The notes beneath the pieces were generated by a model. The model ran no database searches, was not told the DNA's origin, and was given only the letters and a program-made list of their open reading frames with translations. Below, one piece after another: positions 1 to 63,780 of a DNA stretch of 64,000 nucleotides. Both the position numbers and the translations under genes were made by a program. The number at the start of each line of letters is the position of its first letter. The stretch's first letter is position 1. The DNA is from Vicinamibacterales bacterium (GTDB lineage Bacteria; Acidobacteriota; Vicinamibacteria; Vicinamibacterales; UBA2999). The stretch covers positions 50-64,049 of the forward strand of contig JBOGIQ010000001.1 of NCBI GenBank assembly GCA_050742535.1, in the 5' to 3' direction.

Positions 1-304
1 CCAACATCGTCAGCTCCGGCGTGTCGAATGCGATTGCCGCCCCGCCAACGATGCGGGTCGCGAGCCGTGCCGTGAAGAGCGCCCAATTCGACAGATCGAA
101 ACGACTACCCCACTGCAATGGCCCTTCGCCCGCGAGTGCGTCGTAATCCTTTTCATAAGGCACTTCGAGGCGGCGCTCTGACAATACGAACCGACCATCG
201 TCACGATTCGTCACGTCCAGCACACGATCCACCGTGAAGACGATGGGAACGCGTGCGTACTCAGGGAGGGCAGTTCTTGCTTCCTCGGTGACCTCGATTG
301 TCAT
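1..304 (-). CDS. GNAT-family N-acetyltransferase, 5' part (gene continues past the left edge)
   Basis: Reverse-strand translation from the ATG at 302-304 reads MTIEVTEEARTALPEYARVPIVFTVDRVLDVTNRDDGRFVLSERRLEVPYEKDYDALAGEGPLQWGSRFDLSNWALFTARLATRIVGGAAIAFDTPELTML and stays open to the window edge. The pattern resembles a GNAT subfamily from memory. It is absent from the ORF track because there is no in-window stop. Confidence 0.55.
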   Translation of the reverse strand, partial: MTIEVTEEARTALPEYARVPIVFTVDRVLDVTNRDDGRFVLSERRLEVPYEKDYDALAGEGPLQWGSRFDLSNWALFTARLATRIVGGAAIAFDTPELTML

Positions 305-401
305 CGGCGAATCGTATCGCTATCGAAACATCGCCAGGCGCGGCAGCAGGTGTCCCGCGGAGGCGGGAGCGAGATACGGCTGTCGCGACTGGCTACGGGT
401 G

Positions 402-425
402 GTCCGCCTAAAGGCGGACACTACG
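402..425. repeat. REP-type hairpin, family A (GTCCGCC-N4-GGCGGAC plus ACTACG flank)
   Basis: GTCCGCC TAAA GGCGGAC ACTACG read directly. Confidence 0.85.
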
Positions 426-458
426 ACCGGCTGGTTCGCGAGGCGCGACGCTCGGTGG

Positions 459-545
459 TTATTCCATCACCACTGTGAAGACAATTCGGACGCGTGCGTA
501 CTCAGCGAGGGCTGTCATTGCTTCCTCGGTGAGCTCGATTGTCAT
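459..545 (-). pseudogene. 28-codon duplicate of the GNAT 5' end
   Basis: Reverse strand from the ATG at 543-545 gives MTIELTEEAMTALAEYARVRIVFTVVME, then a stop (TAA at 459-461). The first 24 residues parallel the GNAT N-terminus. The last residues VVME-stop equal the C-terminus of the VWA gene (FVVME-stop at 882-896), marking the duplication junction. Confidence 0.65.
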
Positions 546-783
546 CAGCGAATCGTATCGCTATCGAAATATAGCCAGGCGCGGCAACAGGTGTCTCGCG
601 GAGCCGGCCGACTCGACCGCCGGGGCCAGGTGCCACGAGTCGCATGCAGGGAAAGCTGCTCGCATCACGCCCACACGAGACCTCTGAAATGTCACTCGTG
701 CCGACCAAGCCAGTCGATCCTCGGCAGGCGTGCCGAGCGGCTGGCGGAGCGAGATACCTGCTGTCGCGACTGGCTACGGAGTG

Positions 784-845
784 GTCCGCCTACAGCGCGG
801 ACACCACGATCGTGGTTATGGGTCCGCCTAAAGGCGGACACTACG
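784..845. repeat. Two family A hairpins (degenerate copy 784-808, intact copy 822-845)
   Basis: GTCCGCC..GCGGAC ACCACG, then GTCCGCC TAAA GGCGGAC ACTACG. Confidence 0.8.
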
Positions 846-881
846 ACCGGCTGGTTCGCGAGGCGGACGCGACGATCGTGG

Positions 882-3053
882 TTATTCCATCACGACGAAT
901 GTGAGCCGCGGGAACGCGACGGTGCTCGCAATCGAGTCGATGATGTTGATCTGGCACGTGTAGGTGCCCGGCTTGAACTGCTCCGCGGGAACCTCGAACT
1001 GGAAGATGACGGCGCGGCGGTTGGGCTCGTCGATCGCCGTGCGGTCCACCACCGGCGTCTCGAACACCTTCACGCCGCCGCGGTAGAACGCGAGGCTCGT
1101 CCGCAGGTCGGGACGCTGCTCGGCGACCGCCGGGTCGTAGACCTCATAGTAGAAGTAGACCTTCTGGTTCCGCCCGACGGCGCGGGTGAGATTCGGCAGC
1201 AGCTGCACGCCGTCGCGCACCAGCGGATTCTCGGTGCGTCCGCCCGCCGCCTTCTGCACCTGCGTGCTCATCACCACCGAGCTGACCTTCATCGACGGCC
1301 CGGTCATCTGCGGCACGAAAATCGGTGCCTCGAACGACCCGATACTTCCGCCCGTGTTCTCGCGCACGACCACCTTCGCGATGAAGCGGCCCGGCGGAAG
1401 CGTCACTCCGGACTGATAGAAGACCTGCCGCCCGGCGAGCGTCTCGGCGCCGCCCGACGGCACTTTGATCGTTTCACGCAGACGGCCGATGACACGTCCC
1501 TGTTCGTCCCGCACCTCGCCCTTGACGTCCAGCTGGACCTCGGTGGCCTTGTCCGCCACCGGCACCGCAAATCCCGGGACCGCCAGCGCGATCGGCACAT
1601 AGAAGCGGTCGTTGCCGCCGCGTGGGTTGCCCCGCTCCGCGGGCCCGCCTTGCTGGCGGAAATACCCGGTGCCGACGACGAGCGGTACGTCAGTCGACGA
1701 CACAGCGGCCGAGAGTTGATCGTCGAGCAGCGCTTCGCGGTCGCGGTTGTTGGTGTTCGCGAAGCTGCGGCCGGCGTAATAGCCCGGACGTGATTCGACG
1801 CGAAGGCTCTTCAGATCCGGCCGGTTGACGCGGACCTGTATGCGCCGGAATCTCCCGTCGCGCGCCGGGTTGGTGCTCGTGTAGCCGAGGAGGTAGTAGG
1901 CAGCCAGATCGTTCTGCACGCGTGCGAACGCGTCGCCGAAGTTGTTCGAGTCGGTGAAGCTCCGCCCGCCGGTGTCGGCGGACAGCGTGGTGAGCGTCTC
2001 CTGCGTCTGGTTGAGCTGCTGAAAGCCTCGCATGCCGCCGCCGGTCAGGAGCGCGCCTCCGTTGCCGCGGTTCGCCGCCGAACCGCCGGCGGCGACAGCC
2101 TGCAGCCCGCGCGTATCGACCGCGTAGATCGACACGTTGCCGCGGTTGCAGGTGCTGGTCGCAGAACGGAGCTCGATCTGGTTGTCGTCCCCGCTTCGCC
2201 GCATGCCGGCGCTGAAGTAGAGGAGTGCCTTCTTCTGCTGAATCGGCGTCAGCTCCTGGCACACGGTCTTCAACGCCCTGAGGCGTACGTCGTTGTTGAA
2301 TTCCTGGAAGGCGTCCGCCTCGGTCGTGGCCGACGACGCTTCCGCCGACGCCGCCGCTTCCGCTTCGGTCGCCGCCGTGGCAACGGCCTGCGGATCGACC
2401 TCGGTGCCCTCGTTGTAGGCGAGCGCCTGCAGCGCGCCAAGCGCGTCTTCCTTGCTCGACGTGAAGTCGGTCAGGACGTTGAGCCGGGAACCAATCGTGA
2501 TGATGGCAACGAGGTCCGCACCGGTCATCTTGGTGCCGACCCAGTCGCGGGCGTCGACCACGGCGCGCTGCACGTCCTCGGGCTGCATCGAGCTGACGTC
2601 GAACACCATCGTGAGCATCCGCCGGTTGTTCAGGCTGGTCGTATCAGTAGCGGGCGCCGGCGCGGCGGTGGACGTGGCGCTGGCGGCACGTGCGGCCTCG
2701 GCACGCACCTTGTCCTCCAAGCCGTCGAGGAGCTGAATATCGGGCGCGCCCGCCGGAGCCGCTTCGCTGATCTCCTGGAAGGAGAAGGTCGAGATCGTCT
2801 GCGGCTTGCCGTCCTCCGAGACGACGAAGTCCTTCGCCGTCAGCCCGCGCACCACGTTTCCCGCCGCGTCGCGAACCACGACGTCCACCGACACGATGGT
2901 GACGCCGGCGGAGCTTTCGAACCGCGGTGCGTCGGGCGGCTGCTGTTGCTGCTGCTGCGCGGACGGACTGATCGTCCCGGCCGCCAGCGCGAGGATCAAC
3001 ACCATCACGGTCCACGGTCGGCGGCGATGGCGCGTCTCGAGCACGTTGGACAT
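882..3053 (-). CDS. VWA domain-containing protein (acidobacterial TIGR03436-like)
   Basis: 723-aa ORF with a signal-like N-terminus and a poly-Q stretch. FESSAGVTIVSVDVVVRDAAGNVVRGLTAKDFVVSEDGKPQTISTF is the typical N-terminal module of this family, followed by a VWA-like core. Confidence 0.8.
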   Translation of the reverse strand: MSNVLETRHRRRPWTVMVLILALAAGTISPSAQQQQQQPPDAPRFESSAGVTIVSVDVVVRDAAGNVVRGLTAKDFVVSEDGKPQTISTFSFQEISEAAPAGAPDIQLLDGLEDKVRAEAARAASATSTAAPAPATDTTSLNNRRMLTMVFDVSSMQPEDVQRAVVDARDWVGTKMTGADLVAIITIGSRLNVLTDFTSSKEDALGALQALAYNEGTEVDPQAVATAATEAEAAASAEASSATTEADAFQEFNNDVRLRALKTVCQELTPIQQKKALLYFSAGMRRSGDDNQIELRSATSTCNRGNVSIYAVDTRGLQAVAAGGSAANRGNGGALLTGGGMRGFQQLNQTQETLTTLSADTGGRSFTDSNNFGDAFARVQNDLAAYYLLGYTSTNPARDGRFRRIQVRVNRPDLKSLRVESRPGYYAGRSFANTNNRDREALLDDQLSAAVSSTDVPLVVGTGYFRQQGGPAERGNPRGGNDRFYVPIALAVPGFAVPVADKATEVQLDVKGEVRDEQGRVIGRLRETIKVPSGGAETLAGRQVFYQSGVTLPPGRFIAKVVVRENTGGSIGSFEAPIFVPQMTGPSMKVSSVVMSTQVQKAAGGRTENPLVRDGVQLLPNLTRAVGRNQKVYFYYEVYDPAVAEQRPDLRTSLAFYRGGVKVFETPVVDRTAIDEPNRRAVIFQFEVPAEQFKPGTYTCQINIIDSIASTVAFPRLTFVVME

Positions 3054-16534: not shown

Positions 16535-18013
16535 ATGTCCACGGTGATCGAGCTCACCGAAGCTCCAGATCCTGCACGCTGCTGCGAGCTGTTCGCCGGG
16601 CTGCCGTACCGGCTCTTCCTCGACAGCGCGACGCCGGCGACACGCCTCGGCCGCTTCTCCTTCCTGACCGCGGATCCTGTTGCGATCGTACAGAGCAAGG
16701 GCGCGCGGACCGAGGTACACGATGGGCGAAACGGCGTGCGTGTCGTTGCTGGCGACGCGCTCCTGCATGTCGGCGCGCTGCTCGGTCCATACCGGCGAAC
16801 CGCGCTCGAAGGGCTGCCGCCTTTTCAGGGCGGCGCCGCCGGCTATCTCGCCTATGACTGGGGACGGGTGGTCGAGCGCATTCCGGAGAATCGCCACGAT
16901 GATCTCGGACTGCCGGACGCGGTCTTCGGAATTTATGACTGGGTGATTGGGTGGGATCACCGCGCATCGCGCGCGTGGCTGATTTCGACTGGGATTCCTG
17001 AAACGGGGGACGCGGCGCAAGCGCGGAGGGCAGACGAGCGCGCGAAGACGATTGTGGCGAGACTAAATGGGGATCGTGGCGCGGACGTTGGTACGTCCGC
17101 GTCTGGCGAGCCTGACAAGGCTCGCCCCACGATCGCGGATGCTCCCTCGCATCCTGTCGAAGGCGGCTGGTGGGATCGACGCCTCGACGTCCGATCCTCC
17201 TTCACGCATGAGGGGTATCTCGACGCGGTCGCTCGCGTCCGCGAGTACATCCTCGCCGGGGACATCTTCCAGACCAACCTGTCGCAGCGGTTCGAGGCGC
17301 CGCTGACCGAGTCGCCGTGGCAGCTGTACCGCCGGATGCGGATTCGCAACGCCGCGCCGTTCGCCGCGTTCTTCGACACGCCGGACGTGTCCGTGGTCAG
17401 CGCGTCGCCCGAGCGTTTCCTGCGCGTGGACGAGGGCGGCCATGTCGAGACGCGGCCGATCAAGGGCACGATGCCGCGCGGCTTCGGCCCCGAGCACGAC
17501 GGCTTACTCGGTCAGGCTCTGTCGGAAAGCGCCAAGGACCGCGCCGAGAACCTGATGATCGTCGACCTGATGCGCAACGATCTGTCGCGCGTGTGCAGCG
17601 CGGGCACCGTGCGCGTGCCGGAGCTGTTTACCCTCGAACACTACGCGACGGTGCACCACCTCGTCTCGACGGTGGTCGGCGAGCTGGCGCCCGGGCGCGA
17701 TGCGCTCGACCTGCTCCGCGCCGCCTTTCCCGGCGGATCGATTACCGGCGCGCCGAAGGTCCGGGCCATGGAAATCATCGCCGAGCTCGAGCCGTCGCAG
17801 CGCAGCGTCTACTGCGGGTCCCTTGGGTACTGCAGCGTGACTGGCGCGCTCGATACCAGCATCGCCATCCGGACGGTGATCGCACCGGCAGGGCGCGGTC
17901 GCGTGTATTTCAGCGCCGGCGGCGGCATCGTGGCCGATTCGGACCCCGAGCAGGAGTACCGCGAGACGCTCCACAAGGCCCGTGGCATGATCGACGTTTT
18001 GAGGCACCCGTGA
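16535..18013 (+). CDS. pabB: Aminodeoxychorismate synthase component I
   Basis: Chorismate-binding enzyme motifs (DIFQTNLSQRF, SASPERFL, RPIKGT, AENLMIVDLMRND, PGGSITGAPK). It contains a 63-bp family B element in frame. Confidence 0.8.
   Translation: MSTVIELTEAPDPARCCELFAGLPYRLFLDSATPATRLGRFSFLTADPVAIVQSKGARTEVHDGRNGVRVVAGDALLHVGALLGPYRRTALEGLPPFQGGAAGYLAYDWGRVVERIPENRHDDLGLPDAVFGIYDWVIGWDHRASRAWLISTGIPETGDAAQARRADERAKTIVARLNGDRGADVGTSASGEPDKARPTIADAPSHPVEGGWWDRRLDVRSSFTHEGYLDAVARVREYILAGDIFQTNLSQRFEAPLTESPWQLYRRMRIRNAAPFAAFFDTPDVSVVSASPERFLRVDEGGHVETRPIKGTMPRGFGPEHDGLLGQALSESAKDRAENLMIVDLMRNDLSRVCSAGTVRVPELFTLEHYATVHHLVSTVVGELAPGRDALDLLRAAFPGGSITGAPKVRAMEIIAELEPSQRSVYCGSLGYCSVTGALDTSIAIRTVIAPAGRGRVYFSAGGGIVADSDPEQEYRETLHKARGMIDVLRHP
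17072..17134. repeat. Composite hairpin element, family B
   Basis: GATCGTGG CGCGGACG-TTGGTA-CGTCCGCG TCT GGCGAGCC-TGACAA-GGCTCGCC CCACGATC. It is exactly 63 bp and is translated as part of NGDRGADVGTSASGEPDKARPTIADA. Confidence 0.9.
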
Positions 18014-18790: not shown

Positions 18791-19653
18791 CCGACACGCA
18801 CACCATCGTGTGGGTCGATGGAAAGCGGTTTCCGTCGGACGGCGCGCATATCTCGGCGCGCGATCGCGGGTTTACGCTCGCCGACGGTGTCTTCGAGACG
18901 ATGAAGGCGCGGAACGGGAAGGTCTTTCATCTCGACCGTCATCTGACGCGCATCGATAGCGCGCTCCGGACCTTGGACATCCCCCCGCCGGCCGAACTGC
19001 GGGAGTGGGTGGACGCGGCGATTCACGCGGCGCACCTCCCCGAAGCCAGCATTCGCCTCACGGTGAGCCGGGGAGTCGCCCCCGGAGGCGTCGGCGCGCC
19101 GCCTGACCCCGTACCGACGGTCGTCGTGACGGTCGCGCCTCCTCCGGTGTTCGGCGCGGCAGTCTACGAGACCGGGCTGACGGCTCACGTGGCGTCGGGC
19201 CGGCGGAACGAGCATGCGATCACGGCTGGACTGAAGACGCTGGCCTACACCGATGCGATCCTGGCGCTGATTGAGGCCCGCCGGGCCGGCGCCGACGAGG
19301 TGCTGTTTCTCGACACCGCCGGGCATTGCTCGGAAGCGTCGGCCAGCAACCTCTTCGCGGTGATTGGCGGCAGGCTGGCAACGCCGCCCACGTCGTGCGC
19401 GGCGCTTCCCGGCATCACGCGCCGCGCGGTGATCGAACTGGCGGCGGAACATGGGCTGTCCGTGGACGAACGGCCGTTCGGCCTCGACGAGTTGAACGCC
19501 GCGAACGAGGCATTCCTGACCAGTTCGCTGCGCGGCATTGCGCCACTCGTGCGGGTCGGCGGTCACCCGATTGGAACAGGAACGCCAGGCGCGGTCACTC
19601 GAACGGTGATGGCGGCATATGCCGCGCTCGTCACAGCGGAGTGCGGCGAGTGA
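18787..19653 (+). CDS. pabC: Class IV aminotransferase-fold protein, probable aminodeoxychorismate lyase
   Basis: The GTG overlaps the pabA stop (GTGA). DRGFTLADGVFETM, ...EASASNLF and GITR motifs are present, in a context directly after pabB and pabA. Confidence 0.7.
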   Translation: MTDTHTIVWVDGKRFPSDGAHISARDRGFTLADGVFETMKARNGKVFHLDRHLTRIDSALRTLDIPPPAELREWVDAAIHAAHLPEASIRLTVSRGVAPGGVGAPPDPVPTVVVTVAPPPVFGAAVYETGLTAHVASGRRNEHAITAGLKTLAYTDAILALIEARRAGADEVLFLDTAGHCSEASASNLFAVIGGRLATPPTSCAALPGITRRAVIELAAEHGLSVDERPFGLDELNAANEAFLTSSLRGIAPLVRVGGHPIGTGTPGAVTRTVMAAYAALVTAECGE

Positions 19654-20225
19654 TCATCGAAACGATCGTCACCACCATTTCGGCGGATGGCGAGGTGAAC
19701 TGCGCCCCGATGGGCGTCGAATGGAATCCTGACGTTGAACCGGAGACGATTGTTCTGAAGCCGTTCCTGGAGACGGCCACGTATCGAAATGTCCTCGCCA
19801 CCCGTACCGCCGTCGTCAATCTCATCGATGATGTGCGGGTGTTTGCAAAGGCGGCGATCAGCAATCCGGCCTACGAGACGGTGCCCGCGCAGGTCGTTCG
19901 CGGCGTCGCGCTGGCCGACGCCTGTTCGTGGCGCGAGCTCGAGGTAACCGGAATCGACAGCACCCCTCCGCGATCGCGAATCGACACCCGGACCGTGCAT
20001 CGCCAGGTCAGGCGGGAGTTCATCGGCTTCAATCGCGCCCGCCACGCCGTGCTCGAGACGGCAATCTACGCGACGCGTGTCCACCTCCTGGGGCGCGAGT
20101 ATCTTCTCAGCGAGGTCGAGCGGCTGCAGGTCATCGTCGACAAGACGGCCGGTCCGCGTGAATTCGAGGCGATGGCGCTGCTGGTTGAGTACATTCGCAG
20201 CGCACCCGCGGTGGTGAAATCGTGA
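19650..20225 (+). CDS. DUF447-family protein (H4MPT-cluster associated)
   Basis: The GTG overlaps the pabC stop. VIIETIVTTISADGEVNCAPMGV...AVVNLIDDVRVFA resembles DUF447 from memory. Confidence 0.6.
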   Translation: MIIETIVTTISADGEVNCAPMGVEWNPDVEPETIVLKPFLETATYRNVLATRTAVVNLIDDVRVFAKAAISNPAYETVPAQVVRGVALADACSWRELEVTGIDSTPPRSRIDTRTVHRQVRREFIGFNRARHAVLETAIYATRVHLLGREYLLSEVERLQVIVDKTAGPREFEAMALLVEYIRSAPAVVKS

Positions 20226-20289
20226 CCCCTCTCATTACCCACGTAGTGTCCGCCTTCAGGCGGACCCCCGCGGTGGTGAAATCGTGACC
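20205..20289. mobile_element. Family A hairpin insertion (20228-20266) flanked by a perfect 23-bp direct duplication
   Basis: CCCGCGGTGGTGAAATCGTGACC occurs at 20205-20227 and again at 20267-20289. The 39 bp between them contain CGTAGT GTCCGCC TTCA GGCGGAC. Confidence 0.85.
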
Positions 20290-21273
20290 ACCACCGGACT
20301 CGAAGTCTTCGTTGAGGCGCCCGCCCGGCTGCACTTCGGCGTGCTCGATCTCCGCGGCGAACTGGGGCGGTGGTTCGGCGGCATCGGCGCGGCCGCTCCG
20401 GAGGCGACGCTGCTCGTGTCTGCGTCCAGGGCCCTGACCGTGACCGCGCATGGGCAGGACGCGCAGCGGGCCTCGGCGTTCGCGAAGCGGTTTCTCGATC
20501 ACCATCACATTCGCGAAGGCGCTCGCGTGTGCGTACACCGTTCGCTGCCGCGGCACGCCGGTCTCGGCTCCGGAACGCAGCTGGCGCTTTCCGTCGCGCG
20601 GGCGCTGGCCGAGCTGTACGGACTCGATACCGATCCGCCGACGCTGGCGCAGGCTGTCGGCCGCGCGCGCCGGTCCGCAATCGGCACGTGGATCTTTTCC
20701 GGCGGCGGTCTGGTGGTCGAAGGCGGCCGGCACACGGGATTCGACAATTGCGGGCCGTTGATTGCCCGTGTTCCGTTCCCGTCCGAATGGCGATGTGTCG
20801 TCGCGGTTCCGGGCGGCAAGGGACTCAGCGGTGTTCGCGAAGAAGAGGCCTTCTACCGGCTGCCGATGCCACGGCAGGAAGAGGTGGAGCGCGTGGCGCA
20901 TCTCGTCCTGCTGCTGCTGTTGCCGTCGGTCGTCGAAGGCGACCTCTCGAACTTCGGCCGGGCCCTCTCGCAGATCCAGGAGATTACCGGCCGCTGGTTC
21001 GCGGCCGTCCAGGGCAGCACGTTCGCCAAGGGCGTCAGCGAGGAGCTGGTGCACCGGATGCGCGAATGGCGCGCCCTGGGCGTCGGCCAGAGCTCCTGGG
21101 GTCCCGCTGTCTACGGCATCGTCGGCCGCGATGACGATGCAAAGAGGCTGGCGGACCGGGCACGGGACTTTATCGGGTCCGAGGGCGTCGTCTACGCAGG
21201 TCCGTTCCGCAGCGAAGGCGCTCGCGTGTGGACCACGACCGCCCAGCTGCCAACGCCCAACCAGACGATATGA
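20284..21273 (+). CDS. mptG: Beta-ribofuranosylaminobenzene 5'-phosphate synthase (GHMP-kinase fold)
   Basis: The translation starts VFVEAPARLHFGVLDL and contains SLPRHAGLGSGTQLALSVA. These match RFAP synthase from memory. Confidence 0.75.
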   Translation: MTTTGLEVFVEAPARLHFGVLDLRGELGRWFGGIGAAAPEATLLVSASRALTVTAHGQDAQRASAFAKRFLDHHHIREGARVCVHRSLPRHAGLGSGTQLALSVARALAELYGLDTDPPTLAQAVGRARRSAIGTWIFSGGGLVVEGGRHTGFDNCGPLIARVPFPSEWRCVVAVPGGKGLSGVREEEAFYRLPMPRQEEVERVAHLVLLLLLPSVVEGDLSNFGRALSQIQEITGRWFAAVQGSTFAKGVSEELVHRMREWRALGVGQSSWGPAVYGIVGRDDDAKRLADRARDFIGSEGVVYAGPFRSEGARVWTTTAQLPTPNQTI

Positions 21274-21284
21274 TCGCGGGCCTT

Positions 21285-21776
21285 TCAGGAGAATCGCGGC
21301 TGTAACAGATCGGCGACGACGTCCAGGCGCCGCCCGATTGCCATATAGCCGTCAGCCATCTTGTTGACGTTCTCTTGCGTGGCTTCGAGTTCGACTTTGG
21401 TTGCCATGCGTTCGCTGATGTCCGTCAACGTGCGTTCGACGCGCTCGAACCGTTGCTCGATGCGATCGAGCCGTTGGTCCACGCGATCCAGCCGTTGCTC
21501 CACGCGATCGAGTCGTTGCTCCACACGGTCGAGCCGTTGTTCTTCCCCGGAATCTCCATAGCGGTCCGTTGTTTCCCGGACGATGGAGTCCGTCGTCTCC
21601 CGCCCCCGCTCCTCATCTCCGCCGCGACGGCAGCCACGGATCGCGTCGGACCGCGCGATCGACGCCTGGATTTCCTCTCCATGTTGTCTTGCCGCCTCTT
21701 TCAGGTCATCGAGAGCGCGCACCAGTTCTCTATTGAACTCGGAATCCGTAATGGCCTTTGGCTGGATGTCCGACAT
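21285..21776 (-). CDS. Hypothetical coiled-coil protein with 7-residue tandem repeats
   Basis: The translation from the ATG at 21776 begins MSDIQPK... The 21-bp DNA repeat at about 21440-21545 encodes EQRLDRV EQRLDRV EQRLDRV DQRLDRI EQRFERV. The start is uncertain. Confidence 0.5.
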   Translation of the reverse strand: MSDIQPKAITDSEFNRELVRALDDLKEAARQHGEEIQASIARSDAIRGCRRGGDEERGRETTDSIVRETTDRYGDSGEEQRLDRVEQRLDRVEQRLDRVDQRLDRIEQRFERVERTLTDISERMATKVELEATQENVNKMADGYMAIGRRLDVVADLLQPRFS

Positions 21777-21866
21777 GACGACGACGATGCCATCGTCGAC
21801 CACCCGAATCAAGATGCATGTCGGATGCTGCAAACAACTCGCACAGTCTGTTAGCATCCGCGGCGC

Positions 21867-23207
21867 ATGGTCCCCAACCGCTGGCGCATTCCGATTGGCG
21901 CGGTGCTGGTGCACATCTGCATCGGCTCCGTTTACGCGTGGAGTACGTTCAACCGGCCCATTCAGGCGCTCTTTCCCGACAGCCCGTGGTGGTTCAGCCC
22001 GCCCTACACGACGTTTACGACCGCACTCGCGCTGCTCGGGCTGAGCGCCGCCTTCGGCGGACCCTGGGTGGAGCGCCGTGGTCCGCGCGTTGCCGCAACC
22101 TGGGCGGCGATTTTCTTCGGCGTGGGTCTACAGGTCGGCGGGGTGGGCCTCGCGCTTGGCAAGCCCTTCCTGGTGTTTTTGGGCATGGGTCTGACCGGCG
22201 GCGTCGGCTGCGGGCTCGGATACATCTCTCCGGTAAGCACGCTGGTGAAATGGTTTCCCGATCGCCGCGGGATGGCGACTGGCATGGCCATCATGGGGTT
22301 CGGCGGCGGTGCGTTCGTTGCCGGCTACCTCAACGTCTATTTGATGGACGTGTTTGGCGTCGCGCGCACCGTCATGATGCTCGGCGCGATCTACTTCGTG
22401 GTCATGGTCATCGGCTCGCGGCTGATGGAGCTGCCGCCGCCGGGATGGACGCCTGCCGGCTGGAGCCCGCCGGTGAAGGCGAACGCGATGATCGCGGATC
22501 GCAGCGTCACACGCAACGAAGCCATCGGCACCGTGCAGTTCTATCTGTTGTGGGGAATCCTCTTCATCAACGTCACGGCCGGAATCGGAATCCTCGCGCA
22601 GGCGTCGCCGATGATGCAGGACATGTTTGGCCGGACGCCGATCCAGGCTGCCGCCGTCGTCTCGCTCATCAGTCTCTTCAACGCCGGCGGGCGGTTCATG
22701 TGGGCCTCCGGCTCCGATTACATCGGGCGGCGAAACACCTACGTCATCTTCTTCGCGGTGCAGCTGATCCTGTTCCTGCTGATACCTGGCTTTGCCGCGC
22801 GCGGGCAGTGGCTGCCTTTTCAGACCAGCCTCTTCGTCATCTTCACCATGTACGGCGGCGGATTCGCCACGATCCCCGCGTTTCTGGCCGATATCTTCGG
22901 TCCGCAGAACGTCGGGGCGATCCATGGCGCGCTGCTCACGGCGTGGAGTGCCGCGGCGATCGCCGGTCCGGTCATCATCACGGAGCTCTCGAACCGCGCG
23001 AAGGCGGCGCTGCCTCCCGGAGCGAACCGCGTGAACATCTACGACACGCCGCTGCAGGTGCTGGCGGCGTTGCTTGCGGTCGGGTTTGTGATCACGTTGC
23101 TGGTGCGGCCGCTCGCGCGGCAGCAGTATGAACCCCAGCCCGTGCGCGTGCGAACCGGTCCGAAAAGCCGCTCGGGCTCCGTCGCCGTCGTCGAACCTGA
23201 AGACTGA
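21867..23207 (+). CDS. MFS transporter, oxalate/formate antiporter (OFA) family
   Basis: 446 aa with about 12 predicted TM segments. VHICIGSVYAWSTF, PDRRGMATG and GGRFMWASGSDYIGRR are OFA-family patterns. Confidence 0.8.
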   Translation: MVPNRWRIPIGAVLVHICIGSVYAWSTFNRPIQALFPDSPWWFSPPYTTFTTALALLGLSAAFGGPWVERRGPRVAATWAAIFFGVGLQVGGVGLALGKPFLVFLGMGLTGGVGCGLGYISPVSTLVKWFPDRRGMATGMAIMGFGGGAFVAGYLNVYLMDVFGVARTVMMLGAIYFVVMVIGSRLMELPPPGWTPAGWSPPVKANAMIADRSVTRNEAIGTVQFYLLWGILFINVTAGIGILAQASPMMQDMFGRTPIQAAAVVSLISLFNAGGRFMWASGSDYIGRRNTYVIFFAVQLILFLLIPGFAARGQWLPFQTSLFVIFTMYGGGFATIPAFLADIFGPQNVGAIHGALLTAWSAAAIAGPVIITELSNRAKAALPPGANRVNIYDTPLQVLAALLAVGFVITLLVRPLARQQYEPQPVRVRTGPKSRSGSVAVVEPED

Positions 23208-24565: not shown

Positions 24566-25506
24566 TCGCTATTTGGTGCCTCGTGGGGCGAGCCTTGCAG
24601 GCTCGCCTCGCGAACCCGAAGGGTTCGCGCCACGGAATCGAAGTTCGCGCGATCCGTCTCGCCGCAACGTTTGCCATCGTTGTCGCCGCTTCCCCGACGG
24701 GAGTACGCGGTCAGGACTCGACGTTTGCCTCGAAGGCTGCCCCCGTGCGGGTTGACGTGCTCGTGACCGACAACGGCGTTGCCCTGACCGGTCTGACGGC
24801 GGCTGACTTCGAGGTGACCGACAACGGCGTCGTCCAGCAGATCGAGCTGATCGAATTCGACAAGCTGCCGTTGAACGTCATCCTGGCGCTCGACATGAGC
24901 GCCAGCACGGCGGGCGAACGGCTTCTGCACCTGCGGCTGGCCGCTCGCGCCGTGCTCGGGGGACTTGCTGCAACCGATCGCGGCGCGCTCCTCACATTCA
25001 GCGATGGCATCCAGCTGGCGCACGCGCTGTCGGCGGATGTCGCGGCGGTCCGCGCCGCGCTGGACCGGGTGTGGCCGTCCGGCGGAACGGCGCTCGTGGA
25101 TGGTGCGTACTCCGCACTCATGCTCGCCGGGCGCGACGCCGGCCGCGACCTGGTCGTTGTCTTCAGCGATGGTCTGGACACGAGCAGCATCCTGCCGCGG
25201 GAGCGGGTGCTGGAGTCGGCACGGCGCAGCGACGCGGTCGTCTACGGCGTCACCGCGGGAAACTCGGGAAAGGTCGGGTTCGTCAGCAGCCTCAGCCAGC
25301 AGACCGGCGGACAGTCGATGGAGGTCTCCTCGACGATGGATCTGCAGAAGACGTTCGTCGGAATCCTCGACGAGTTCCGGCGCCGCTACGTCCTGAGCTT
25401 CACGCCGCGCGGCGTTTCCGGCACCGGCTGGCACCGGCTGCAGGTCCGCGTCAAGGGACGCCGGGCGGTGATTACCGCGCGCCAGGGGTATACCGCCGGC
25501 GGATAA
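24562..25506 (+). CDS. VWA domain-containing protein (TIGR03436-like)
   Basis: VRVDVLVTDNGVALTGLTAADFEVTDNGVVQQIE is followed by a VWA core (ILALDMSAS, GGTALVDG). The ATGA overlaps the TPR gene. The N-terminal 25 residues are encoded by a family B element, so the true start is uncertain. Confidence 0.7.
   Translation: MIAIWCLVGRALQARLANPKGSRHGIEVRAIRLAATFAIVVAASPTGVRGQDSTFASKAAPVRVDVLVTDNGVALTGLTAADFEVTDNGVVQQIELIEFDKLPLNVILALDMSASTAGERLLHLRLAARAVLGGLAATDRGALLTFSDGIQLAHALSADVAAVRAALDRVWPSGGTALVDGAYSALMLAGRDAGRDLVVVFSDGLDTSSILPRERVLESARRSDAVVYGVTAGNSGKVGFVSSLSQQTGGQSMEVSSTMDLQKTFVGILDEFRRRYVLSFTPRGVSGTGWHRLQVRVKGRRAVITARQGYTAGG
24581..24635. repeat. Composite hairpin element, family B
   Basis: CGTGG GGCGAGCC-TTGCA-GGCTCGCC T CGCGAACCC-GAA-GGGTTCGCG CCACG. 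Confidence 0.85.
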
Positions 25507-33416: not shown

Positions 33417-35258
33417 TCAGACTCCGCGCTGACGGTGATATTCCGCAACAAGCTCGTTGAGGCGGTTGCGGCTCAGTGAAGCCGCCGGGTCGTCCGGCAG
33501 CGGCGTAGTCAGGAAGCGCTCCGGCAGCGTGTCCTCCGCAGGCGTCCACCCGGCGAGAAGATTGAACCGGCGCTTGGCTGCGACGATGCGTTTGGCCGTC
33601 TCGCGGAGTTCGCCGGCCGTGGCATCCCATCCAGTGACGGCACGGAGCATCACGGCGGCTTCCGCGTAGAAATCCTCGAACACGCCGCGCAGGAACTTGC
33701 AGACGATGAGCGAGTCCATCAGCGCGGCCTTGTCCTCGGTCTCGATGGCGTGGCGGACCGCGTCGAGCGTCACGTTCCGGCGATCGACCTTGTCCGAGAA
33801 GTCCACCTCGTAGGCGCCGCTGCGGTTGTGGTCGGCGCCGCGCGGGCCGACGGCGAATCCAAGCGCCATCGTCTGCAGCGCCCGCGGTTCGTACCCGGGA
33901 ATCTCCAGCCCCTTGACCTGTGGGGCGATGGAGAGGCTGTCGTGCCCGATGGCCTGGGCGGCGCGGCGGCTGCCTTCGGCGAGCACGCGACCGATTCCCA
34001 TGCGCGACCCGATCAGCTCGATGGCTCGCAGCAGCGCGCCGCCGCTGCCGAAACGCAGCCACGGCTCGTCCAGCCATCCGCGCTCGACGCACTCCATCGC
34101 GAAGGCGATTGTTCCGCCCGCGCTGATCGTGTCGAGGCCGAGCTCGTCGCAGCGGCGGGATGCGCGCAGGACGACGTCGGGATCGCCGATGCCGCAGAGC
34201 GAACCGAGCGCGAACAGGCTCTCGTATTCGACGCGAACGCCGTCGTTCTGGTCCGCCTGAAGGCGGACACTACGGCCATCGTCGTTCCGGTCCGCCTGAA
34301 GGCGGACACTACGTACGCCGTCGTAGTGTCCGCCTTTAGGCGGACCCAACGAATAAATATGCTCACAGCCGATCGTGCACGTCACGCAGCTCTCGCGCGT
34401 CTTCGAGCGCGTCGCCGTCAGCTGCTCGGGCGAGAGATTGACGGCGTCCTCGAACGTGCCGCTCTGAAAGTTTCGCGTCGGCAGCGCGTTGAAGCGGTTG
34501 AATGTCAGGAGGTTGGTCGCCGTCCCGAGCTCGCGGTACTTCGCCGTCGCCGGGCCGAACGACCGCTTCGAGAGGTCGCGACTGAGGGCCGTCAGTTCCT
34601 GCGGATGGGCCCACTCGACGCGGAGCGTGCCGCGGACGGCAATCGCCTTGATGTTCTTCGCTCCGAGCACGGCTCCGCTTCCACCTCGTCCCGCGTGCCG
34701 GCCGTCGTGCGAGATGGTCGCGTACCGAACGAGCTGCTCGCCGGCTGGACCGATCGAGGCGACGCGGTACTCCGGACCAAGCTCGGCTCGCAGGCGAGAC
34801 TCGGTGTCCTGGCACGTCGCTCCGCGATACGCGGCTGCCGGTACAACACGCACCCGCGCCTGTTCCTCGCGTCCGTCCTGTTCGACGACGAGCACCGAGA
34901 GCTCTGCGGCGCGGCCGACGATCATCAACGCATCGCAGCCGCAGCGCTTTCCGGCCACCGCAAAGCCGCTGCTGGCCAGCGAGTCGTTGATTCGCTCGGT
35001 GAGCGGGCTCTTGCTGACGACGGCGAACTTGGCGGAGGTCGTCAAGGGGCTGCCCACAAGCGGGCTGAACGCGAACACGAGCGGGGCCTCAGGCGCCAGT
35101 GGATCGACGTTCGCCGCACCTTCGTCGAGCAGCAGCCGGACGCCAAGACCGCTGCCGCCGAGAAACTGACGGAGCGTCGCGTCGTCGAGAGGTACGCGCG
35201 TGGCCGAACCGGCCGTGACGTCTATGCGGAGGTAGGAGCCGTGGTAGCCATGAGGCAT
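33417..35258 (-). CDS. Aldehyde:ferredoxin oxidoreductase family (tungsto/molybdopterin) enzyme
   Basis: The translation from the ATG at 35258 begins MPHGYHGSYLRIDVT...; it contains GGSGLG, the AOR N-terminal domain, CVTCTIGCEHIY and VEYESLFALGSLCGI. It carries three family A hairpins in frame. Confidence 0.85.
   Translation of the reverse strand: MPHGYHGSYLRIDVTAGSATRVPLDDATLRQFLGGSGLGVRLLLDEGAANVDPLAPEAPLVFAFSPLVGSPLTTSAKFAVVSKSPLTERINDSLASSGFAVAGKRCGCDALMIVGRAAELSVLVVEQDGREEQARVRVVPAAAYRGATCQDTESRLRAELGPEYRVASIGPAGEQLVRYATISHDGRHAGRGGSGAVLGAKNIKAIAVRGTLRVEWAHPQELTALSRDLSKRSFGPATAKYRELGTATNLLTFNRFNALPTRNFQSGTFEDAVNLSPEQLTATRSKTRESCVTCTIGCEHIYSLGPPKGGHYDGVRSVRLQADRNDDGRSVRLQADQNDGVRVEYESLFALGSLCGIGDPDVVLRASRRCDELGLDTISAGGTIAFAMECVERGWLDEPWLRFGSGGALLRAIELIGSRMGIGRVLAEGSRRAAQAIGHDSLSIAPQVKGLEIPGYEPRALQTMALGFAVGPRGADHNRSGAYEVDFSDKVDRRNVTLDAVRHAIETEDKAALMDSLIVCKFLRGVFEDFYAEAAVMLRAVTGWDATAGELRETAKRIVAAKRRFNLLAGWTPAEDTLPERFLTTPLPDDPAASLSRNRLNELVAEYHRQRGV
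34251..34345. repeat. Three family A hairpins (two direct, one inverted) inside the AOR CDS
   Basis: GTCCGCC TGAA GGCGGAC ACTACG (34251-34274), the same again (34290-34313), then CGTAGT GTCCGCC TTTA GGCGGAC (34322-34345). Confidence 0.9.
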
Positions 35259-45855: not shown

Positions 45856-45993
45856 GATCCACCCTCTGATTGCACCGACCAGCGAAGGAATCTTTGCCCC
45901 GACCCGCGAAAGGACCCCTCGCACCGACCCGCGAAGTAACCTCGCACCAACCAGCGAAGTGACTTCGCACCGACCCGCGAAGAAACGTCGCAC
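45856..45993. repeat. Solo array of about 6 family D units (TCGCACCGACC plus short variable hairpin, 22-25 bp each)
   Basis: ...TCGCACCGACCCGCGAAGTAACC TCGCACCAACCAGCGAAGTGACT TCGCACCGACCCGCGAAGAAACG TCGCACC... It fills the whole gap between the glcG stop and the cupin start. Confidence 0.85.
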
Positions 45994-46467
45994 CTATTTG
46001 AGCGCGTTGACCGCCGCCTGCGCCACGACTCCGTCCTGCTGGCTCGTGCCGCCGGACGCCCCGATCGCGCCGACGATCTTCCCGCCCGACACGAGCGGTA
46101 TTCCGCCTTCCACCGGAATGGCGCCGTCGAGGGCGAGAATCCGCAGCCCCTCGCCGCCGGCAGCCAGCGCGTCCTGAAACGCCTTCGTCGGCCGCTTGAA
46201 GCGCGCCGCCGATCGCGCCTTCGACTGCGCGACCTGGACGCTTCCGACCTGCGTGTCGTCCATCTTTTCGAAGTAGACGAGGTCGCCACCGGTATCGACG
46301 ATGGCGATGGCCATGTTCCAGTTGTTCTTGCGCGCCTCGGCGATGGCCGGCGTGGCGATCTTCTTTGCGGTCTCGAGGTTGATGTTCGGTCCGTAGCTCA
46401 TAGTTTGTGAGGCGGCAGGCAGGACGCACGCGAGCGTCGCTGCTGCCGCGAAAAGAAACTGCTTCAT
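45994..46467 (-). CDS. GlcG/HbpS-family (DUF336) heme-binding protein
   Basis: The ORF has a signal peptide. It contains AIAIVDTGGDLVYFEKMD...SKARSAARF...GGIPL..GGKIVGAIGASGG. Confidence 0.75.
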   Translation of the reverse strand: MKQFLFAAAATLACVLPAASQTMSYGPNINLETAKKIATPAIAEARKNNWNMAIAIVDTGGDLVYFEKMDDTQVGSVQVAQSKARSAARFKRPTKAFQDALAAGGEGLRILALDGAIPVEGGIPLVSGGKIVGAIGASGGTSQQDGVVAQAAVNALK

Positions 46468-48019: not shown

Positions 48020-48254
48020 TGACCGGTGCGAGGTTGCTGCGCCTGATCAGTGCGATCGTGGGGCGGGCCTTGTCAGGCCCGCCTGGGTCGGTGCGAAGTC
48101 GCTTCGCCTGGTCGGTGCGAGGTGGCCGCGCTGGTCGGTGCGAGGTGGCCGCGCTGGTCGGTTCGCCTGGTTAGTGCGAAGTCGCTTCGCCTGGTCGGTG
48201 CGAGTGTTCCGACTATGGCCCGTTCTAGGGTGCGCCTGGTCGGGGTCCACGATC
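48020..48254. repeat. Family D array (GGTCGGTGCGA orientation, about 7 units) bounded by family B termini GATCGTGG (48054-48061) and CCACGATC (48247-48254)
   Basis: GATCGTGG GGCGGGCC-TTGTCA-GGCCCGCC TGGGTCGGTGCGAAGTCGCTTCGC CTGGTCGGTGCGAGGTGGCCGCG CTGGTCGGTGCGAGGTGGCCGCG ... GGTCGGGGT CCACGATC. It overlaps the last ~10 codons of the four-helix-bundle gene. Confidence 0.85.
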
Positions 48255-48711: not shown

Positions 48712-49062
48712 GATCGTAGAAATATCGCACCGACCGCGCAGCCTGTTCGCACCGACCGCGAAGTCCCTTCGCACCGCCCCGGCGCAGCCTCTTCGCACCG
48801 ACCGCGAAGCCCGTTCGCACCAACCCGGCGCAGCCTCCTCGCACCGACCGCGAAGCCCAATCGCACCGACCCGGCGCAGCCTCCTCGCACCGACCGCGAA
48901 GCCCAATCGCACCAACCCGGCGCAGCCTCCTCGCACCGACCGCGAAGTCCAATCGCACCAACCCGGCGCAGCCTCCTCGCACCGACCGCGAAGTCGCGTT
49001 CGCACCGACCCCGGCGCAGCCTCCTCGCACCGCCCCGCGTCAGCTTGCTCGCACCTCCCGGT
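48712..49062. repeat. Family D array in inverted orientation (TCGCACCGACC, about 15 units; alternating two subtypes give a 46-bp higher-order period)
   Basis: Units alternate between TCGCACCGACCGCGAAGYCCNN and TCGCACCRACCCGGCGCAGCCTCC. The array begins with GATCGTAG (48712-48719). Its last units overlap the final codons of nrtD. Confidence 0.85.
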
Positions 49063-63671: not shown

Positions 63672-63780
63672 GGTGCGAGGCGTCTTCGCTGGTCGGTGCG
63701 AGGAGGCTTCGCCAAGTCGGTGCAAGCAGGCTGCGCCGGGTGGGTGCAAGCACGCTGACGCCTGGTCGGTCCAAGCACGC
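63672..63780. repeat. Family D array (GGTCGGTGCGA orientation, about 4.5 units)
   Basis: GGGTGCGAGGCGTCTTCGCTGGTC GGTGCGAGGAGGCTTCGCCAAGTC GGTGCAAGCAGGCTGCGCCGGGTG GGTGCAAGCACGCTGACGCCTGGTC GGTCCAAGC. It lies directly upstream of the second four-helix-bundle gene. Confidence 0.8.

What the first reader, a model, noticed from the sequence alone, without database searches (positions are those of the whole stretch)
20205..20289. Hairpin-repeat insertion with a perfect 23-bp flanking duplication that regenerates a stop/start overlap
CCCGCGGTGGTGAAATCGTGACC occurs at 20205-20227 and again at 20267-20289. The two copies flank a 39-bp insert, CCTCTCATTACCCACGTAGTGTCCGCCTTCAGGCGGACC, which carries a family A hairpin.

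The duplicated segment contains the GTGA where the DUF447 stop and the RFAP-synthase GTG start would have overlapped. Copy 1 now provides the stop, at 20223-20225. Copy 2 now provides the start, at 20284.

This looks like a recent insertion footprint and gives a concrete handle on the mobilisation mechanism. A 23-bp duplication is much longer than typical transposase target-site duplications. That argues for a replication-linked or repair-linked mechanism, or a staggered-nick mechanism.
Basis: seen in the sequence. Interest (0 to 1): 0.65.

Follow-up and report, generated by a model that had tools for sequence, protein, structure and literature searches.

The report
Hairpin repeat splitting two overlapping genes
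A small mobile hairpin repeat (REP) landed where two operon genes overlapped by four bases; a 23-base duplication of that junction gives both genes intact ends again and creates an unstable 62-base unit found in zero, one or two copies in close relatives, so it is a real but old and locus-specific oddity rather than a clue to how these repeats move.

Summary
CCCGCGGTGGTGAAATCGTGACC occurs exactly twice (20205-20227, 20267-20289) around a 39-bp insert that carries a GTAG-headed REP hairpin.

It is a true insertion. More than ten related lineages keep a single GTGA or ATGA stop/start overlap between DUF447 and RFAP synthase. An independent assembly reproduces the arrangement base for base.

It is not recent. 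The same insert and duplication occur in lineages only about 84-90% identical in DNA. There the two copies differ (17-18/23), so the window's perfect identity reflects homogenisation.

The 62-bp unit (insert plus one copy) varies in number:
- absent in the window's sister lineage;
- single in the window, L122 and L001;
- double in L123.

The unit forms a 21-codon bridging ORF joined to both genes by GTGA overlaps. This resembles mycobacterial MIRUs in architecture.

None of about 140 other REP copies has a comparable flanking duplication, and 1.37 Mb of related DNA holds no second case. The duplication is therefore not the family's insertion footprint. It is most likely a rare junction duplication that survived because a stand-alone insertion into a 4-nt overlap needs it. 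How it arose is unresolved.

The parts
19650..20225 (+). DUF447 gene (191 codons). Its last six codons and its stop (TGA 20223-20225) lie in duplication copy 1.
   Evidence: Pfam DUF447_N and DUF447_C. Gene calls on the twin contig L214. Tail YIRSAPAVVKS*.
20205..20227 (+). Duplication copy 1 (D1): CCCGCGGTGGTGAAATCGTGACC. It holds the DUF447 stop and a GTGA whose GTG (20222) now opens the bridging mini-ORF.
20228..20242 (+). 15-nt non-REP 'filler' (CCTCTCATTACCCAC). It is homologous in L001, L122 and L123, with a conserved CATT core. It might be a 5' extension of the inserted unit, a decayed copy of upstream DUF447 codons, or a partner for the downstream SD-like GGTGG.
   Evidence: Junction alignments. 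10-11/16 collinear match to the upstream sequence in L001 but 7/16 in the window. Only L074 shares CCCATTTCC next to REPs. Folding.
20243..20265 (+). REP core GTAGTGTCCGCCTTCAGGCGGAC: GTAG head plus a 7-bp GC-rich stem (20248-20254 / 20259-20265) and a TTCA loop.
   Evidence: More than 113 stretches with the exact core in Vicinamibacterales and other Acidobacteriota MAGs. The orthologous alleles carry the GTCCGGC/GCCGGAC stem variant.
20267..20289 (+). Duplication copy 2 (D2), identical to D1. It supplies the SD-like GGTGGTGA (20272-20279) and the GTG start (20284) of RFAP synthase. Its TGA (20285-20287) ends the mini-ORF.
20222..20287 (+). Bridging mini-ORF of 21 codons (VTPLITHVVSAFRRTPAVVKS*). 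Its start overlaps the DUF447 stop as GTGA and its stop overlaps the RFAP-synthase start as GTGA. The REP is read as VVSAFRRT.
   Evidence: The same chain occurs in L122, two chained ORFs occur in L123, and L001 has a frame-shifted but still GTGA-chained version.
20284..21273 (+). beta-RFAP synthase gene (329 codons; GHMP-kinase fold family).
   Evidence: identical to NCBI MGH9236411.1.

Best explanation
**What it is.** A GTAG-type REP hairpin unit (39 bp) sits at what was ancestrally a 4-nt GTGA stop/start overlap between DUF447 and RFAP synthase, in a pABA/methanopterin-type operon of a soil Vicinamibacterales bacterium. A 23-bp duplication of the junction brackets it.
- Copy 1 keeps the DUF447 C-terminus and stop.
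- Copy 2 keeps the SD-like sequence and GTG start of RFAP synthase.

**Bridging ORF.** Insert plus one copy is 62 bp, which is 2 mod 3. The GTG left in copy 1 therefore opens a 21-codon ORF that runs through the hairpin and ends at the TGA overlapping the RFAP-synthase start. The three reading frames are chained by GTGA overlaps.

**Dynamics.** The two copies also make the locus a minisatellite. Recombination or slippage between them deletes the unit precisely, doubles it, or homogenises the copies.

**Shown**
- The anatomy, the empty sites and the shared ancestry of the insert.
- The 0/1/2 copy-number states.
- Divergence of the copies in relatives and their identity in the window.
- The absence of such duplications at other REP copies.

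**Inferred**
- The chained mini-ORF preserves translational coupling.
- The duplication was not made by the REP-mobilising enzyme. It was a rare junction duplication, either a small tandem duplication that the REP then entered or a single replication/repair template-switch event.
- It persisted because a stand-alone insertion into a 4-nt overlap is viable only if both gene ends are regenerated.
For: **Real insertion**
- Empty single-overlap junctions occur in L118, L119, L004, L125, L120/L128, L126, L127, L002, L003 and L198-L213.
- The same insert and duplication occur in L001, L122 and L123, and in the near-identical independent assembly L214.

**History**
- Bootstrapped NJ tree on 1,356 alignment columns: the clade holding all D-I-D alleles has 100% support, window+L118(empty) 100%, and L122+L123 100%. 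This implies one gain and at least two precise losses.
- L122 (one unit) and L123 (two units) are 100% identical over 611 nt of RFAP synthase.

**Concerted evolution**
- D1 versus D2 is 17/23 in L001 and 18/23 in L122. The orthologous D1 copies match at 21/23. The window's copies match at 23/23, and both are 22/23 to L119's single copy.

**Bridging ORF**
- Present in the window and L122, two in series in L123, and chained through a second GTGA in L001.

**Not a family footprint**
- Longest flanking repeats at about 19 other hairpins in the window are background-like, except one local tandem duplication.
- 0 of 124 exact REP cores from 113 genome stretches has a unique long flanking repeat.
- A scan of 1.37 Mb finds this architecture only here.

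**Selection-filter idea**
- Other REPs at tight junctions are all translation-compatible without a duplication. They lie in frame in the DUF447 tail in L124 and L153. They lie in frame after the nasA-like start codon at window 56465-56497, with 0 to about 4 units in relatives.
Against: - Translation of the mini-ORF and any coupling role are untested. A 62-bp unit gives the right phase by chance one time in three, and only three independent filled lineages are available.
- L001 has lost the exact phase. It is rescued only by a second GTGA inside the duplicated segment.
- The origin of the duplication is not resolved, and no intermediate allele was found. Neither a duplication without the REP nor a REP without the duplication turned up in this clade.
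- Precise loss in L118 and L119 is inferred from the tree. Allele exchange between strains cannot be excluded, although the flanks of the window's junction are L118-like right up to the repeat.
- No RAYT gene was found in the DNA held, so the REP-family assignment rests on sequence form and copy number alone.
Confidence: 0.6

Rival explanations
1. Recent transposition with a genuine 23-bp target-site duplication. A staggered-cut enzyme inserted the REP unit, and fill-in of 23-nt overhangs produced the two copies.
For: The structure is formally copy-insert-copy with exact 23-bp repeats abutting the insert. It needs only one event. The boundaries of the duplication are the same in all filled alleles.
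Against: - 0 of 124 plus about 19 other REP copies have such a duplication.
- Three other junction insertions of the same family lack any duplication.
- The insertion is old and the copies have diverged in relatives, so perfect identity here does not indicate recency.
- Known HUH/Y1 (IS200/IS605-type) transposition, the model for REP mobilisation, makes no sizeable target duplication (PMC2817692, Background).
Confidence: 0.07
2. One-step replication or repair accident. During replication the nascent strand left the junction after GTGACC and copied about 39 nt from a REP-bearing template elsewhere. It then returned 23 nt upstream of where it left and re-copied the junction. The hairpin and short C-rich microhomologies guided the switches.
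For: - A single event explains insert plus duplication without requiring a transposase footprint.
- REP neighbourhoods in these genomes show other local duplications and arrays: window 770-890, 34237-34345, and L074 and L110.
- The L074 array spacer CAACCCATTTCCC resembles the filler, hinting at a donor-type sequence.
Against: No donor locus with the full 39-nt insert was found (only one partial resemblance). The microhomologies are too short and GC-rich to be informative. The idea is not distinguishable from the two-step route with the present data.
Confidence: 0.25
3. Independent, recurrent insertions at a hot spot. The window, L122/L123 and L001 each acquired the unit separately, and L118 and L119 never had it.
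For: REPs did enter this DUF447 tail or junction independently in other clades (L124, L153), so the site is insertion-prone. The window's copies are identical, as expected for a young event.
Against: The filled alleles share the same 15-nt non-REP filler (10/15 identical between the window and either L001 or L122), the same orientation, the same duplication boundaries and the same 61-62-bp unit. Three identical complex events are far less parsimonious than one gain plus repeat-mediated losses. L122 versus L123 shows that copy number does change rapidly.
Confidence: 0.08
4. The unit is functionally neutral for translation. The ORF compatibility is coincidental. The hairpin acts, if at all, as classical REPs do, as an mRNA decay barrier or a protein-binding site between cistrons.
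For: - The correct phase has a one-in-three chance.
- The unit is dispensable, since the window's sister lineage lacks it.
- The hairpin is stable and not followed by a T-run.
- About 75% of REP copies surveyed are plainly extragenic.
Against: - All REPs seen at 4-nt-overlap junctions are in translation-compatible configurations.
- The mini-ORF stays open across about 20% sequence divergence of the insert.
- Both units of L123 keep the chain.
Confidence: 0.3
5. Assembly artefact: mis-joined or expanded reads at the hairpin.
For: Short repeats and hairpins can confuse assemblers. All the data are from metagenome assemblies.
Against: An identical junction occurs in an independent assembly (L214). 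Diverged versions occur in three other assemblies from different samples. Both flanking genes remain intact.
Confidence: 0.01

Closest known systems
Mycobacterial interspersed repetitive units (MIRUs; Supply et al. 1997, as summarised in Delihas 2011, PMC3184786 section 9)
   Same: - Unit of 40-100 bp lying between genes of a polycistronic operon.
- The unit carries a small ORF whose ends overlap the stop and start of the flanking genes.
- Filled and empty sites differ by a direct repeat that contains the overlap.
- Units occur in tandem, with copy number varying between close relatives (here 0, 1 or 2).
   Different: - The flanking repeat here is 23 bp, not a tetranucleotide.
- The core is a GTAG-headed perfect hairpin of a REP family.
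- The 62-bp unit as a whole is found at one locus only in 1.37 Mb, not dispersed at tens of loci.
- Different phylum, and no sequence relationship was tested or expected.
REP / REPIN elements associated with RAYT (Y1 HUH) transposases (Nunvar et al. 2010, PMC2817692; Bertels and Rainey 2011, PMC3116915)
   Same: - GTAG head followed by a short GC-rich palindrome of about 23 nt.
- Many copies (8 in 64 kb), mostly extragenic, as singlets, inverted pairs and arrays.
- The core is conserved across many species of one order.
   Different: - No RAYT gene was found in the DNA available.
- Known REPs are not reported with long flanking duplications, and this copy is the only one here that has one.
- This copy is embedded in a translated-looking bridging ORF.
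BIME / REP tandem amplification in enterobacteria (own knowledge of Bachellier, Gilson and colleagues; not re-read here)
   Same: REP-containing units change copy number in tandem between strains, by slippage or unequal exchange between repeated flanks.
   Different: In BIMEs the repeated flanks are parts of the mosaic element itself, not duplicated gene ends. No coupling-preserving ORF is involved.
In-frame palindromic element insertions in genes, such as Rickettsia palindromic elements (own knowledge)
   Same: The sister solutions seen here are hairpin repeats tolerated inside coding sequence when in frame. Examples are the REP read as VVSGFSRT in the DUF447 tail of L124 and L153, REP units in the N-terminus of the nasA-like gene, and a family-B element in the pabB-like linker.
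   Different: The finding itself is not in frame with either neighbour. It is a separate mini-ORF made possible by the duplication.

Membership tests
REP (RAYT-type repetitive extragenic palindrome) | Conserved GTAG/GTGG head followed by a short GC-rich imperfect or perfect palindrome, 20-35 nt | tested here: met
   GTAG + GTCCGCC-TTCA-GGCGGAC. The form matches the REP table in PMC2817692.
REP (RAYT-type repetitive extragenic palindrome) | High copy number, predominantly extragenic, conserved within a lineage | tested here: met
   8 exact-core copies in 64 kb against 0.97 expected. 143 of 190 copies are extragenic by an ORF heuristic.
REP (RAYT-type repetitive extragenic palindrome) | A cognate RAYT (Y1 HUH transposase) gene in the genome, typically flanked by REPs | tested here: inconclusive
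   tblastn with a remembered E. coli RayT sequence found nothing in the window or in about 0.9 Mb of loci. ORFs bracketed by REP pairs do not look like RAYT. The full genome was not available and the bait was weak.
REP (RAYT-type repetitive extragenic palindrome) | Occurrence as inverted doublets (REPIN) or arrays (BIME) | tested here: met
   34237-34345 holds two direct copies plus one inverted copy at a 39-nt period. Arrays occur in L074 and L110. The copy in question is a singlet.
MIRU-type intercistronic minisatellite | 40-100-bp unit between co-oriented genes of an operon | tested here: met
   62-bp unit between DUF447 and RFAP synthase in a pabB-pabA-pabC-like-DUF447-RFAPS operon.
MIRU-type intercistronic minisatellite | Unit contains a small ORF whose start and stop overlap the flanking genes' stop and start | tested here: met
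   GTG 20222 overlaps TGA 20223-25, and TGA 20285-87 overlaps GTG 20284. The same holds in L122, twice in L123, and in modified form in L001.
MIRU-type intercistronic minisatellite | Variable number of tandem units between close relatives | tested here: met
   0 units (L118, L119), 1 unit (window, L214, L122, L001) and 2 units (L123) within one 100%-supported clade.
MIRU-type intercistronic minisatellite | The same unit dispersed at tens of loci in the genome | tested here: not met
   The 39-nt insert is unique in the window. Only the 23-nt REP core is dispersed. A scan of 1.37 Mb finds the architecture at this locus only.
MIRU-type intercistronic minisatellite | Sequence homology to mycobacterial MIRU consensus, or mycobacterial host | not tested
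   No MIRU consensus was available in the tools. The host is an acidobacterium, so family membership is not claimed.
Transposable element insertion with target-site duplication (IS/MITE type) | Direct repeats of fixed length flank most or all copies of the element | tested here: not met
   1 of about 144 copies is flanked.
Transposable element insertion with target-site duplication (IS/MITE type) | Terminal inverted repeats at the ends of the inserted unit | tested here: not met
   The insert ends (CCTCTCATT... and ...GGCGGACC) are not inverted repeats. The only palindrome is the internal REP stem.

The most novel reading that the evidence does not exclude
REP hairpins can seed MIRU-type intercistronic minisatellites. 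A REP that enters a stop/start overlap together with a duplication of the junction creates a translationally chained unit. That unit then expands, contracts and homogenises by repeat-mediated exchange. If this is general, the locus captures the birth of a MIRU-like element. It would link two repeat classes, REPs and MIRUs, whose origins have been treated separately, and it suggests that selection for translational coupling shapes where and how REPs can persist inside operons.
Probability: 0.2. Interest if true: 0.6.

Novelty: new variant of a known kind. Interest (0 to 1): 0.42.

Why it matters
**What it shows.** This is a well-documented natural example, with empty, single and double alleles and a dated history. 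A selfish hairpin repeat has been accommodated inside a tightly coupled operon junction. A duplicated stop/SD/start segment restores both genes and makes a chained mini-ORF.

**Practical cautions**
- A perfect flanking repeat need not mean a recent insertion, because short repeats can be homogenised.
- A flanking repeat need not be a transposase footprint.

**Testable questions**
- The locus offers a model for how MIRU-like intercistronic minisatellites might arise.
- It offers a small system for asking whether translational coupling constrains REP persistence.

It does not reveal the REP mobilisation mechanism, and it appears to be a single-locus event.

Tried and rejected
1. **Long duplication as a family footprint.** Tested on about 19 hairpins in the window and on 124 exact cores from reference MAGs. 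Rejected.
2. **The 14-bp flank at REP 822.** It proved to be a local tandem duplication that includes a degenerate REP, not a target duplication.
3. **Filler as a decayed copy of upstream DUF447 codons, implying an original duplication of 40 bp or more.** L001 gives 11/16 at the collinear, in-frame register (background about 6e-4). The window gives only 7/16 by script; L122 also gave 7/16, but only on a hand comparison, not a tool run. Left as a possibility, not adopted.
4. **Filler as a copy of the RFAP-synthase 5' codons (rightward extension).** On a comparison by eye of the sequences printed I saw no similarity; this was not scored by a script.
5. **Filler as a conserved 5' extension of the REP unit.** Only L074 shares CCCATTTCC, and the overall hit rate is at background.
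6. **Filler as an anti-SD partner of GGTGG in copy 2.** It recurs in isolated folds of the window, L122 and L123. It relies on G.U pairs, competes with other pairings in longer contexts, and rests on only three independent lineages. Kept as a hypothesis.
7. **RAYT search.** tblastn with a bait recalled from memory, and inspection of REP-bracketed ORFs, found nothing. Inconclusive.
8. **Rfam.** No family hit in the window at gathering thresholds.
9. **More alleles from the 227-member protein cluster.** The members fetched (L198-L213) all lie outside the filled clade and are empty. One further filled allele (P0128) could be seen only as a 58-nt gene gap, without DNA.
11. **Literature.** I found no report of REPs with long flanking duplications or of REP-cored bridging ORFs in the searchable library. 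Absence there is not proof of absence.

Full report
**1. The observation**

The 23-mer CCCGCGGTGGTGAAATCGTGACC occurs at 20205-20227 and 20267-20289 and nowhere else in the window, even with three mismatches. None occurred in 100 shuffles.

The 39 bp between the copies are unique as a whole. They contain GTAG followed by a perfect 7-bp stem and 4-nt loop, GTCCGCC-TTCA-GGCGGAC.

The core GTAGTGTCCGCCTTYAGGCGGAC has eight copies in the window. Sister hairpin families are also present.

The upstream ORF is DUF447 by Pfam. The downstream ORF has GHMP-kinase domains by Pfam and is named beta-RFAP synthase in source annotations of its homologues. They close an operon of pabB-like, pabA-like and class-IV aminotransferase genes. 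The DUF447 stop (TGA 20223-20225) is in copy 1. The RFAP-synthase GTG (20284) is in copy 2. The description is therefore accurate.

**2. It is a real insertion**

RFAP-synthase relatives were fetched from assemblies and metagenomes.
- More than ten lineages have a single junction with a 4-nt GTGA or ATGA overlap. These are L118, L119, L004, L125, L120/L128, L126, L127, L002, L003 and L198-L213.
- L001 and L122 carry the same architecture: copy, 15-nt filler, REP, copy.
- L123 carries it twice in tandem.
- L214 comes from a different NCBI assembly and is 99.975% identical to the window over 12 kb. Its junction is identical.
- A further JGI contig shows the same 58-nt gene gap, but no DNA could be read.

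An assembly artefact is excluded.

**3. It is not recent**

The window and L001 are about 84% identical in DNA, and the window and L122 about 90%.

A bootstrapped NJ tree was built on 1,356 aligned columns of DUF447 and RFAP synthase, with the junction excluded.
- All filled alleles fall in one clade with 100% support.
- The window's sister lineage, L118, is empty (100% support), and L119 is also empty.
- L122 and L123 are sisters with 100% support.

The filled alleles share the non-REP filler, orientation, boundaries and unit length. The economical history is therefore one gain at the base of the clade and at least two precise losses.

L122 (one unit) and L123 (two units) are identical over 611 nt of RFAP synthase. 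Copy number therefore changes on very short timescales.

**4. Why the copies are identical here**

- In L001 the two copies match at 17/23, and in L122 at 18/23.
- The orthologous first copies of L001 and L122 match at 21/23. The duplication therefore predates their split.
- In the window the copies match at 23/23, and both are 22/23 to the single copy of L119.
- The window's DUF447 tail (APAVVKS) is also one to two codons shorter than in its relatives (APSAVVNS, APSSAVVKS, APTSSVVKS, APSSPVVKA). This fits copy 1 having been overwritten by copy 2.

Perfect identity here reflects concerted evolution between the repeats. The same exchange explains precise loss and doubling. It does not reflect youth.

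**5. The unit is a chained mini-ORF**

Insert (39 nt, 0 mod 3) plus one copy (23 nt, 2 mod 3) gives 62 nt.

The GTG of the GTGA in copy 1 (20222) opens a 21-codon frame, VTPLITHVVSAFRRTPAVVKS. This frame reads through the hairpin. It stops at the TGA (20285-20287) that overlaps the RFAP-synthase GTG.
- L122 has the same chain.
- L123 has two such ORFs in series.
- L001 has a 1-nt deletion, so its mini-ORF ends at an earlier TGA. That TGA is itself overlapped by a GTG opening a 3-codon ORF, which ends on the RFAP-synthase start.

This is the architecture described for mycobacterial MIRUs: 40-100-bp units in operons, small ORFs overlapping the flanking genes, direct repeats at filled sites and variable tandem copy number (PMC3184786, section 9). 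That the chain preserves translational coupling is my inference. It has not been tested.

**6. The duplication is not the family's footprint**

- Flanking-repeat lengths at about 19 other REP-like hairpins in the window match the random-position background. The one exception is a local tandem duplication that includes a REP.
- The exact REP core occurs in more than 113 stretches from many Vicinamibacterales and other Acidobacteriota MAGs. None of 124 such copies has a unique long flanking repeat, and the only long matches are REP arrays.
- A direct scan of all 1.37 Mb held looked for a repeat of 12 nt or more whose first copy holds a long ORF's stop and whose second copy holds the next ORF's start. 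It returns only this locus.

**7. Other REPs at tight junctions show the selection filter**

- In L124 and L153, which lie in different clades, the same REP family sits in the DUF447 tail. It is read in frame as VVSGFSRT, with the ATGA or TAATG overlap intact and no duplication.
- In the window, REP 56475 lies between an Fe-S/DmsC-like gene and a nasA-like molybdopterin oxidoreductase. The empty allele (L216) reads gcATGAGCAGGCTT.
- The window has a REP-bearing in-frame insertion just after the ATG that adds 11 codons before the GTG at 56498 (MRSRSVRLQADVKRLIGLD).
- L215 has about four in-frame REP units at that junction. The N-termini of twenty relatives show zero to four units.

REPs at 4-nt overlaps therefore persist in three translation-compatible ways. 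They can lie in frame in the upstream tail or in frame after the downstream start. Or, as here, they form a separate ORF bracketed by a duplicated junction. Only the third way needs a duplication long enough to carry the stop, the SD-like GGTGGTGA and the start.

**8. Origin of the duplication (unresolved)**

Three routes remain:
- a small neutral tandem duplication of the junction that a REP later entered (23 nt also keeps the GTGA chain);
- a one-step template switch or gap repair that copied a REP-bearing stretch and re-copied 23 nt;
- a true staggered-cut insertion.

The third is disfavoured by section 6 and by what is known of IS200/IS605-type enzymes (PMC2817692).

Hints exist but are weak.
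- L001's filler matches the upstream DUF447 codons at 11/16 in the collinear, in-frame register. The window matches at only 7/16, and a hand comparison of L122 gave the same.
- One unrelated REP array (L074) has spacers resembling the filler.
- No intermediate allele was found.

**9. Other points**

- The REP stem differs between orthologous alleles by a paired change: GTCCGCC/GGCGGAC in the window and GTCCGGC/GCCGGAC in L001, L122 and L123. This could be compensatory substitution, or conversion from the other REP subfamily, which is also present in the window.
- Folding suggests the filler's CCATT core can pair with GGTGG of copy 2 and so extend the hairpin over the SD-like sequence. This pairing recurs in the window, L122 and L123 but rests on G.U pairs and few lineages.
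- Rfam has no match in the window.
- No RAYT gene was found in the DNA held, which is inconclusive.

**10. Verdict**

'Recent' and 'handle on the mobilisation mechanism' are not supported.

The feature is a REP-cored, MIRU-like, copy-number-variable bridging unit at one operon junction. It is a new variant of known kinds and of moderate interest. Its main value is as a clean evolutionary example and a caution about reading flanking repeats as young transposase footprints.

Noticed in passing
window 56465-56497 (with L215 1501-1670 and L216 971-1030): A second tight junction holds REPs. The REP lies in frame just after the ATG of a nasA-like molybdopterin oxidoreductase, and the ATGA overlap with the upstream Fe-S/DmsC-like gene is kept. 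Relatives carry 0 to about 4 in-frame REP units, giving N-termini such as MSDSNPAKAGLYG...GVRLQADFKRL. The true start may instead be the GTG at 56498.
   Followed up: partly
window 17072-17135: A 'family B' double-hairpin element with GATCGTGG...CCACGATC ends lies in frame inside the pabB-like gene. Other copies start near 24587, 29407, 44076, 48054 and 49933. It encodes the inter-domain linker DRGADVGTSASGEPDKARPTIAD. The relative L211 has an unrelated linker of the same length.
   Followed up: partly
L124 about 370-415; L153 about 600-655: Independent insertions of the same REP family lie inside the DUF447 C-terminal tail. They are read in frame as VVSGFSRT, with no duplication. The REP head GTAGTG sits where related tails have GTGGTG, which hints at a target resembling the REP head.
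   Followed up: partly
window 229-607 and 390-890: Two segments about 88% identical (229-366 and 470-607) are each followed by a REP. Around 770-890 a local tandem duplication includes a degenerate REP copy and leaves 14-bp direct repeats (ACGATCGTGGTTAT).
   Followed up: partly
window 34237-34345: A REP cluster with a 39-nt period holds two copies in one orientation and one inverted copy. It resembles a BIME or REPIN.
   Followed up: no
window 48724-49032; also 45872-45994, 48086-48203, 63691-63780: A 46-nt tandem array (6.7 copies, 91% matches) and several arrays of 23-24-nt period share GGTCGGTGCGA-type units. Their nature is unknown, and the period is too short for CRISPR.
   Followed up: no
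window 21288-21914 (- strand), repeat 21439-21539: An ORF with weak XhlA-like coiled-coil hits contains a 21-nt repeat (4.8 copies) encoding (E/D)QRLDRV heptads. This gene sits between RFAP synthase and the MFS gene in the window and in its twin L214. It is absent from the gene calls at the same position in the relatives L001, L002, L003 and L211.
   Followed up: no
L136, L167, L173 (about 60-90 nt upstream of the RFAP-synthase start): In more distant relatives, where a different gene precedes RFAP synthase, another GTAG-hairpin family (GTAGAGGCGGGTCTTCAGACCCGCC) sits directly before the RFAP-synthase start.
   Followed up: no
L074, about positions 2740-2880 on the reverse strand: A head-to-tail array of three REPs with CAACCCAT(C/T)TCCC spacers lies immediately upstream of a sequence that looks like the 5' end of tmRNA (GGGGGCGAAACGGCTTCGACGG).
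   Followed up: no
loci L005-L117 (genome-contig scan): The exact 23-nt REP core is conserved across dozens of Vicinamibacterales and other Acidobacteriota MAG species. A few hits are in MAGs labelled Gemmatimonadales, Pyrinomonadaceae and Bifidobacterium. The Bifidobacterium ones could be chance matches or binning contamination.
   Followed up: no
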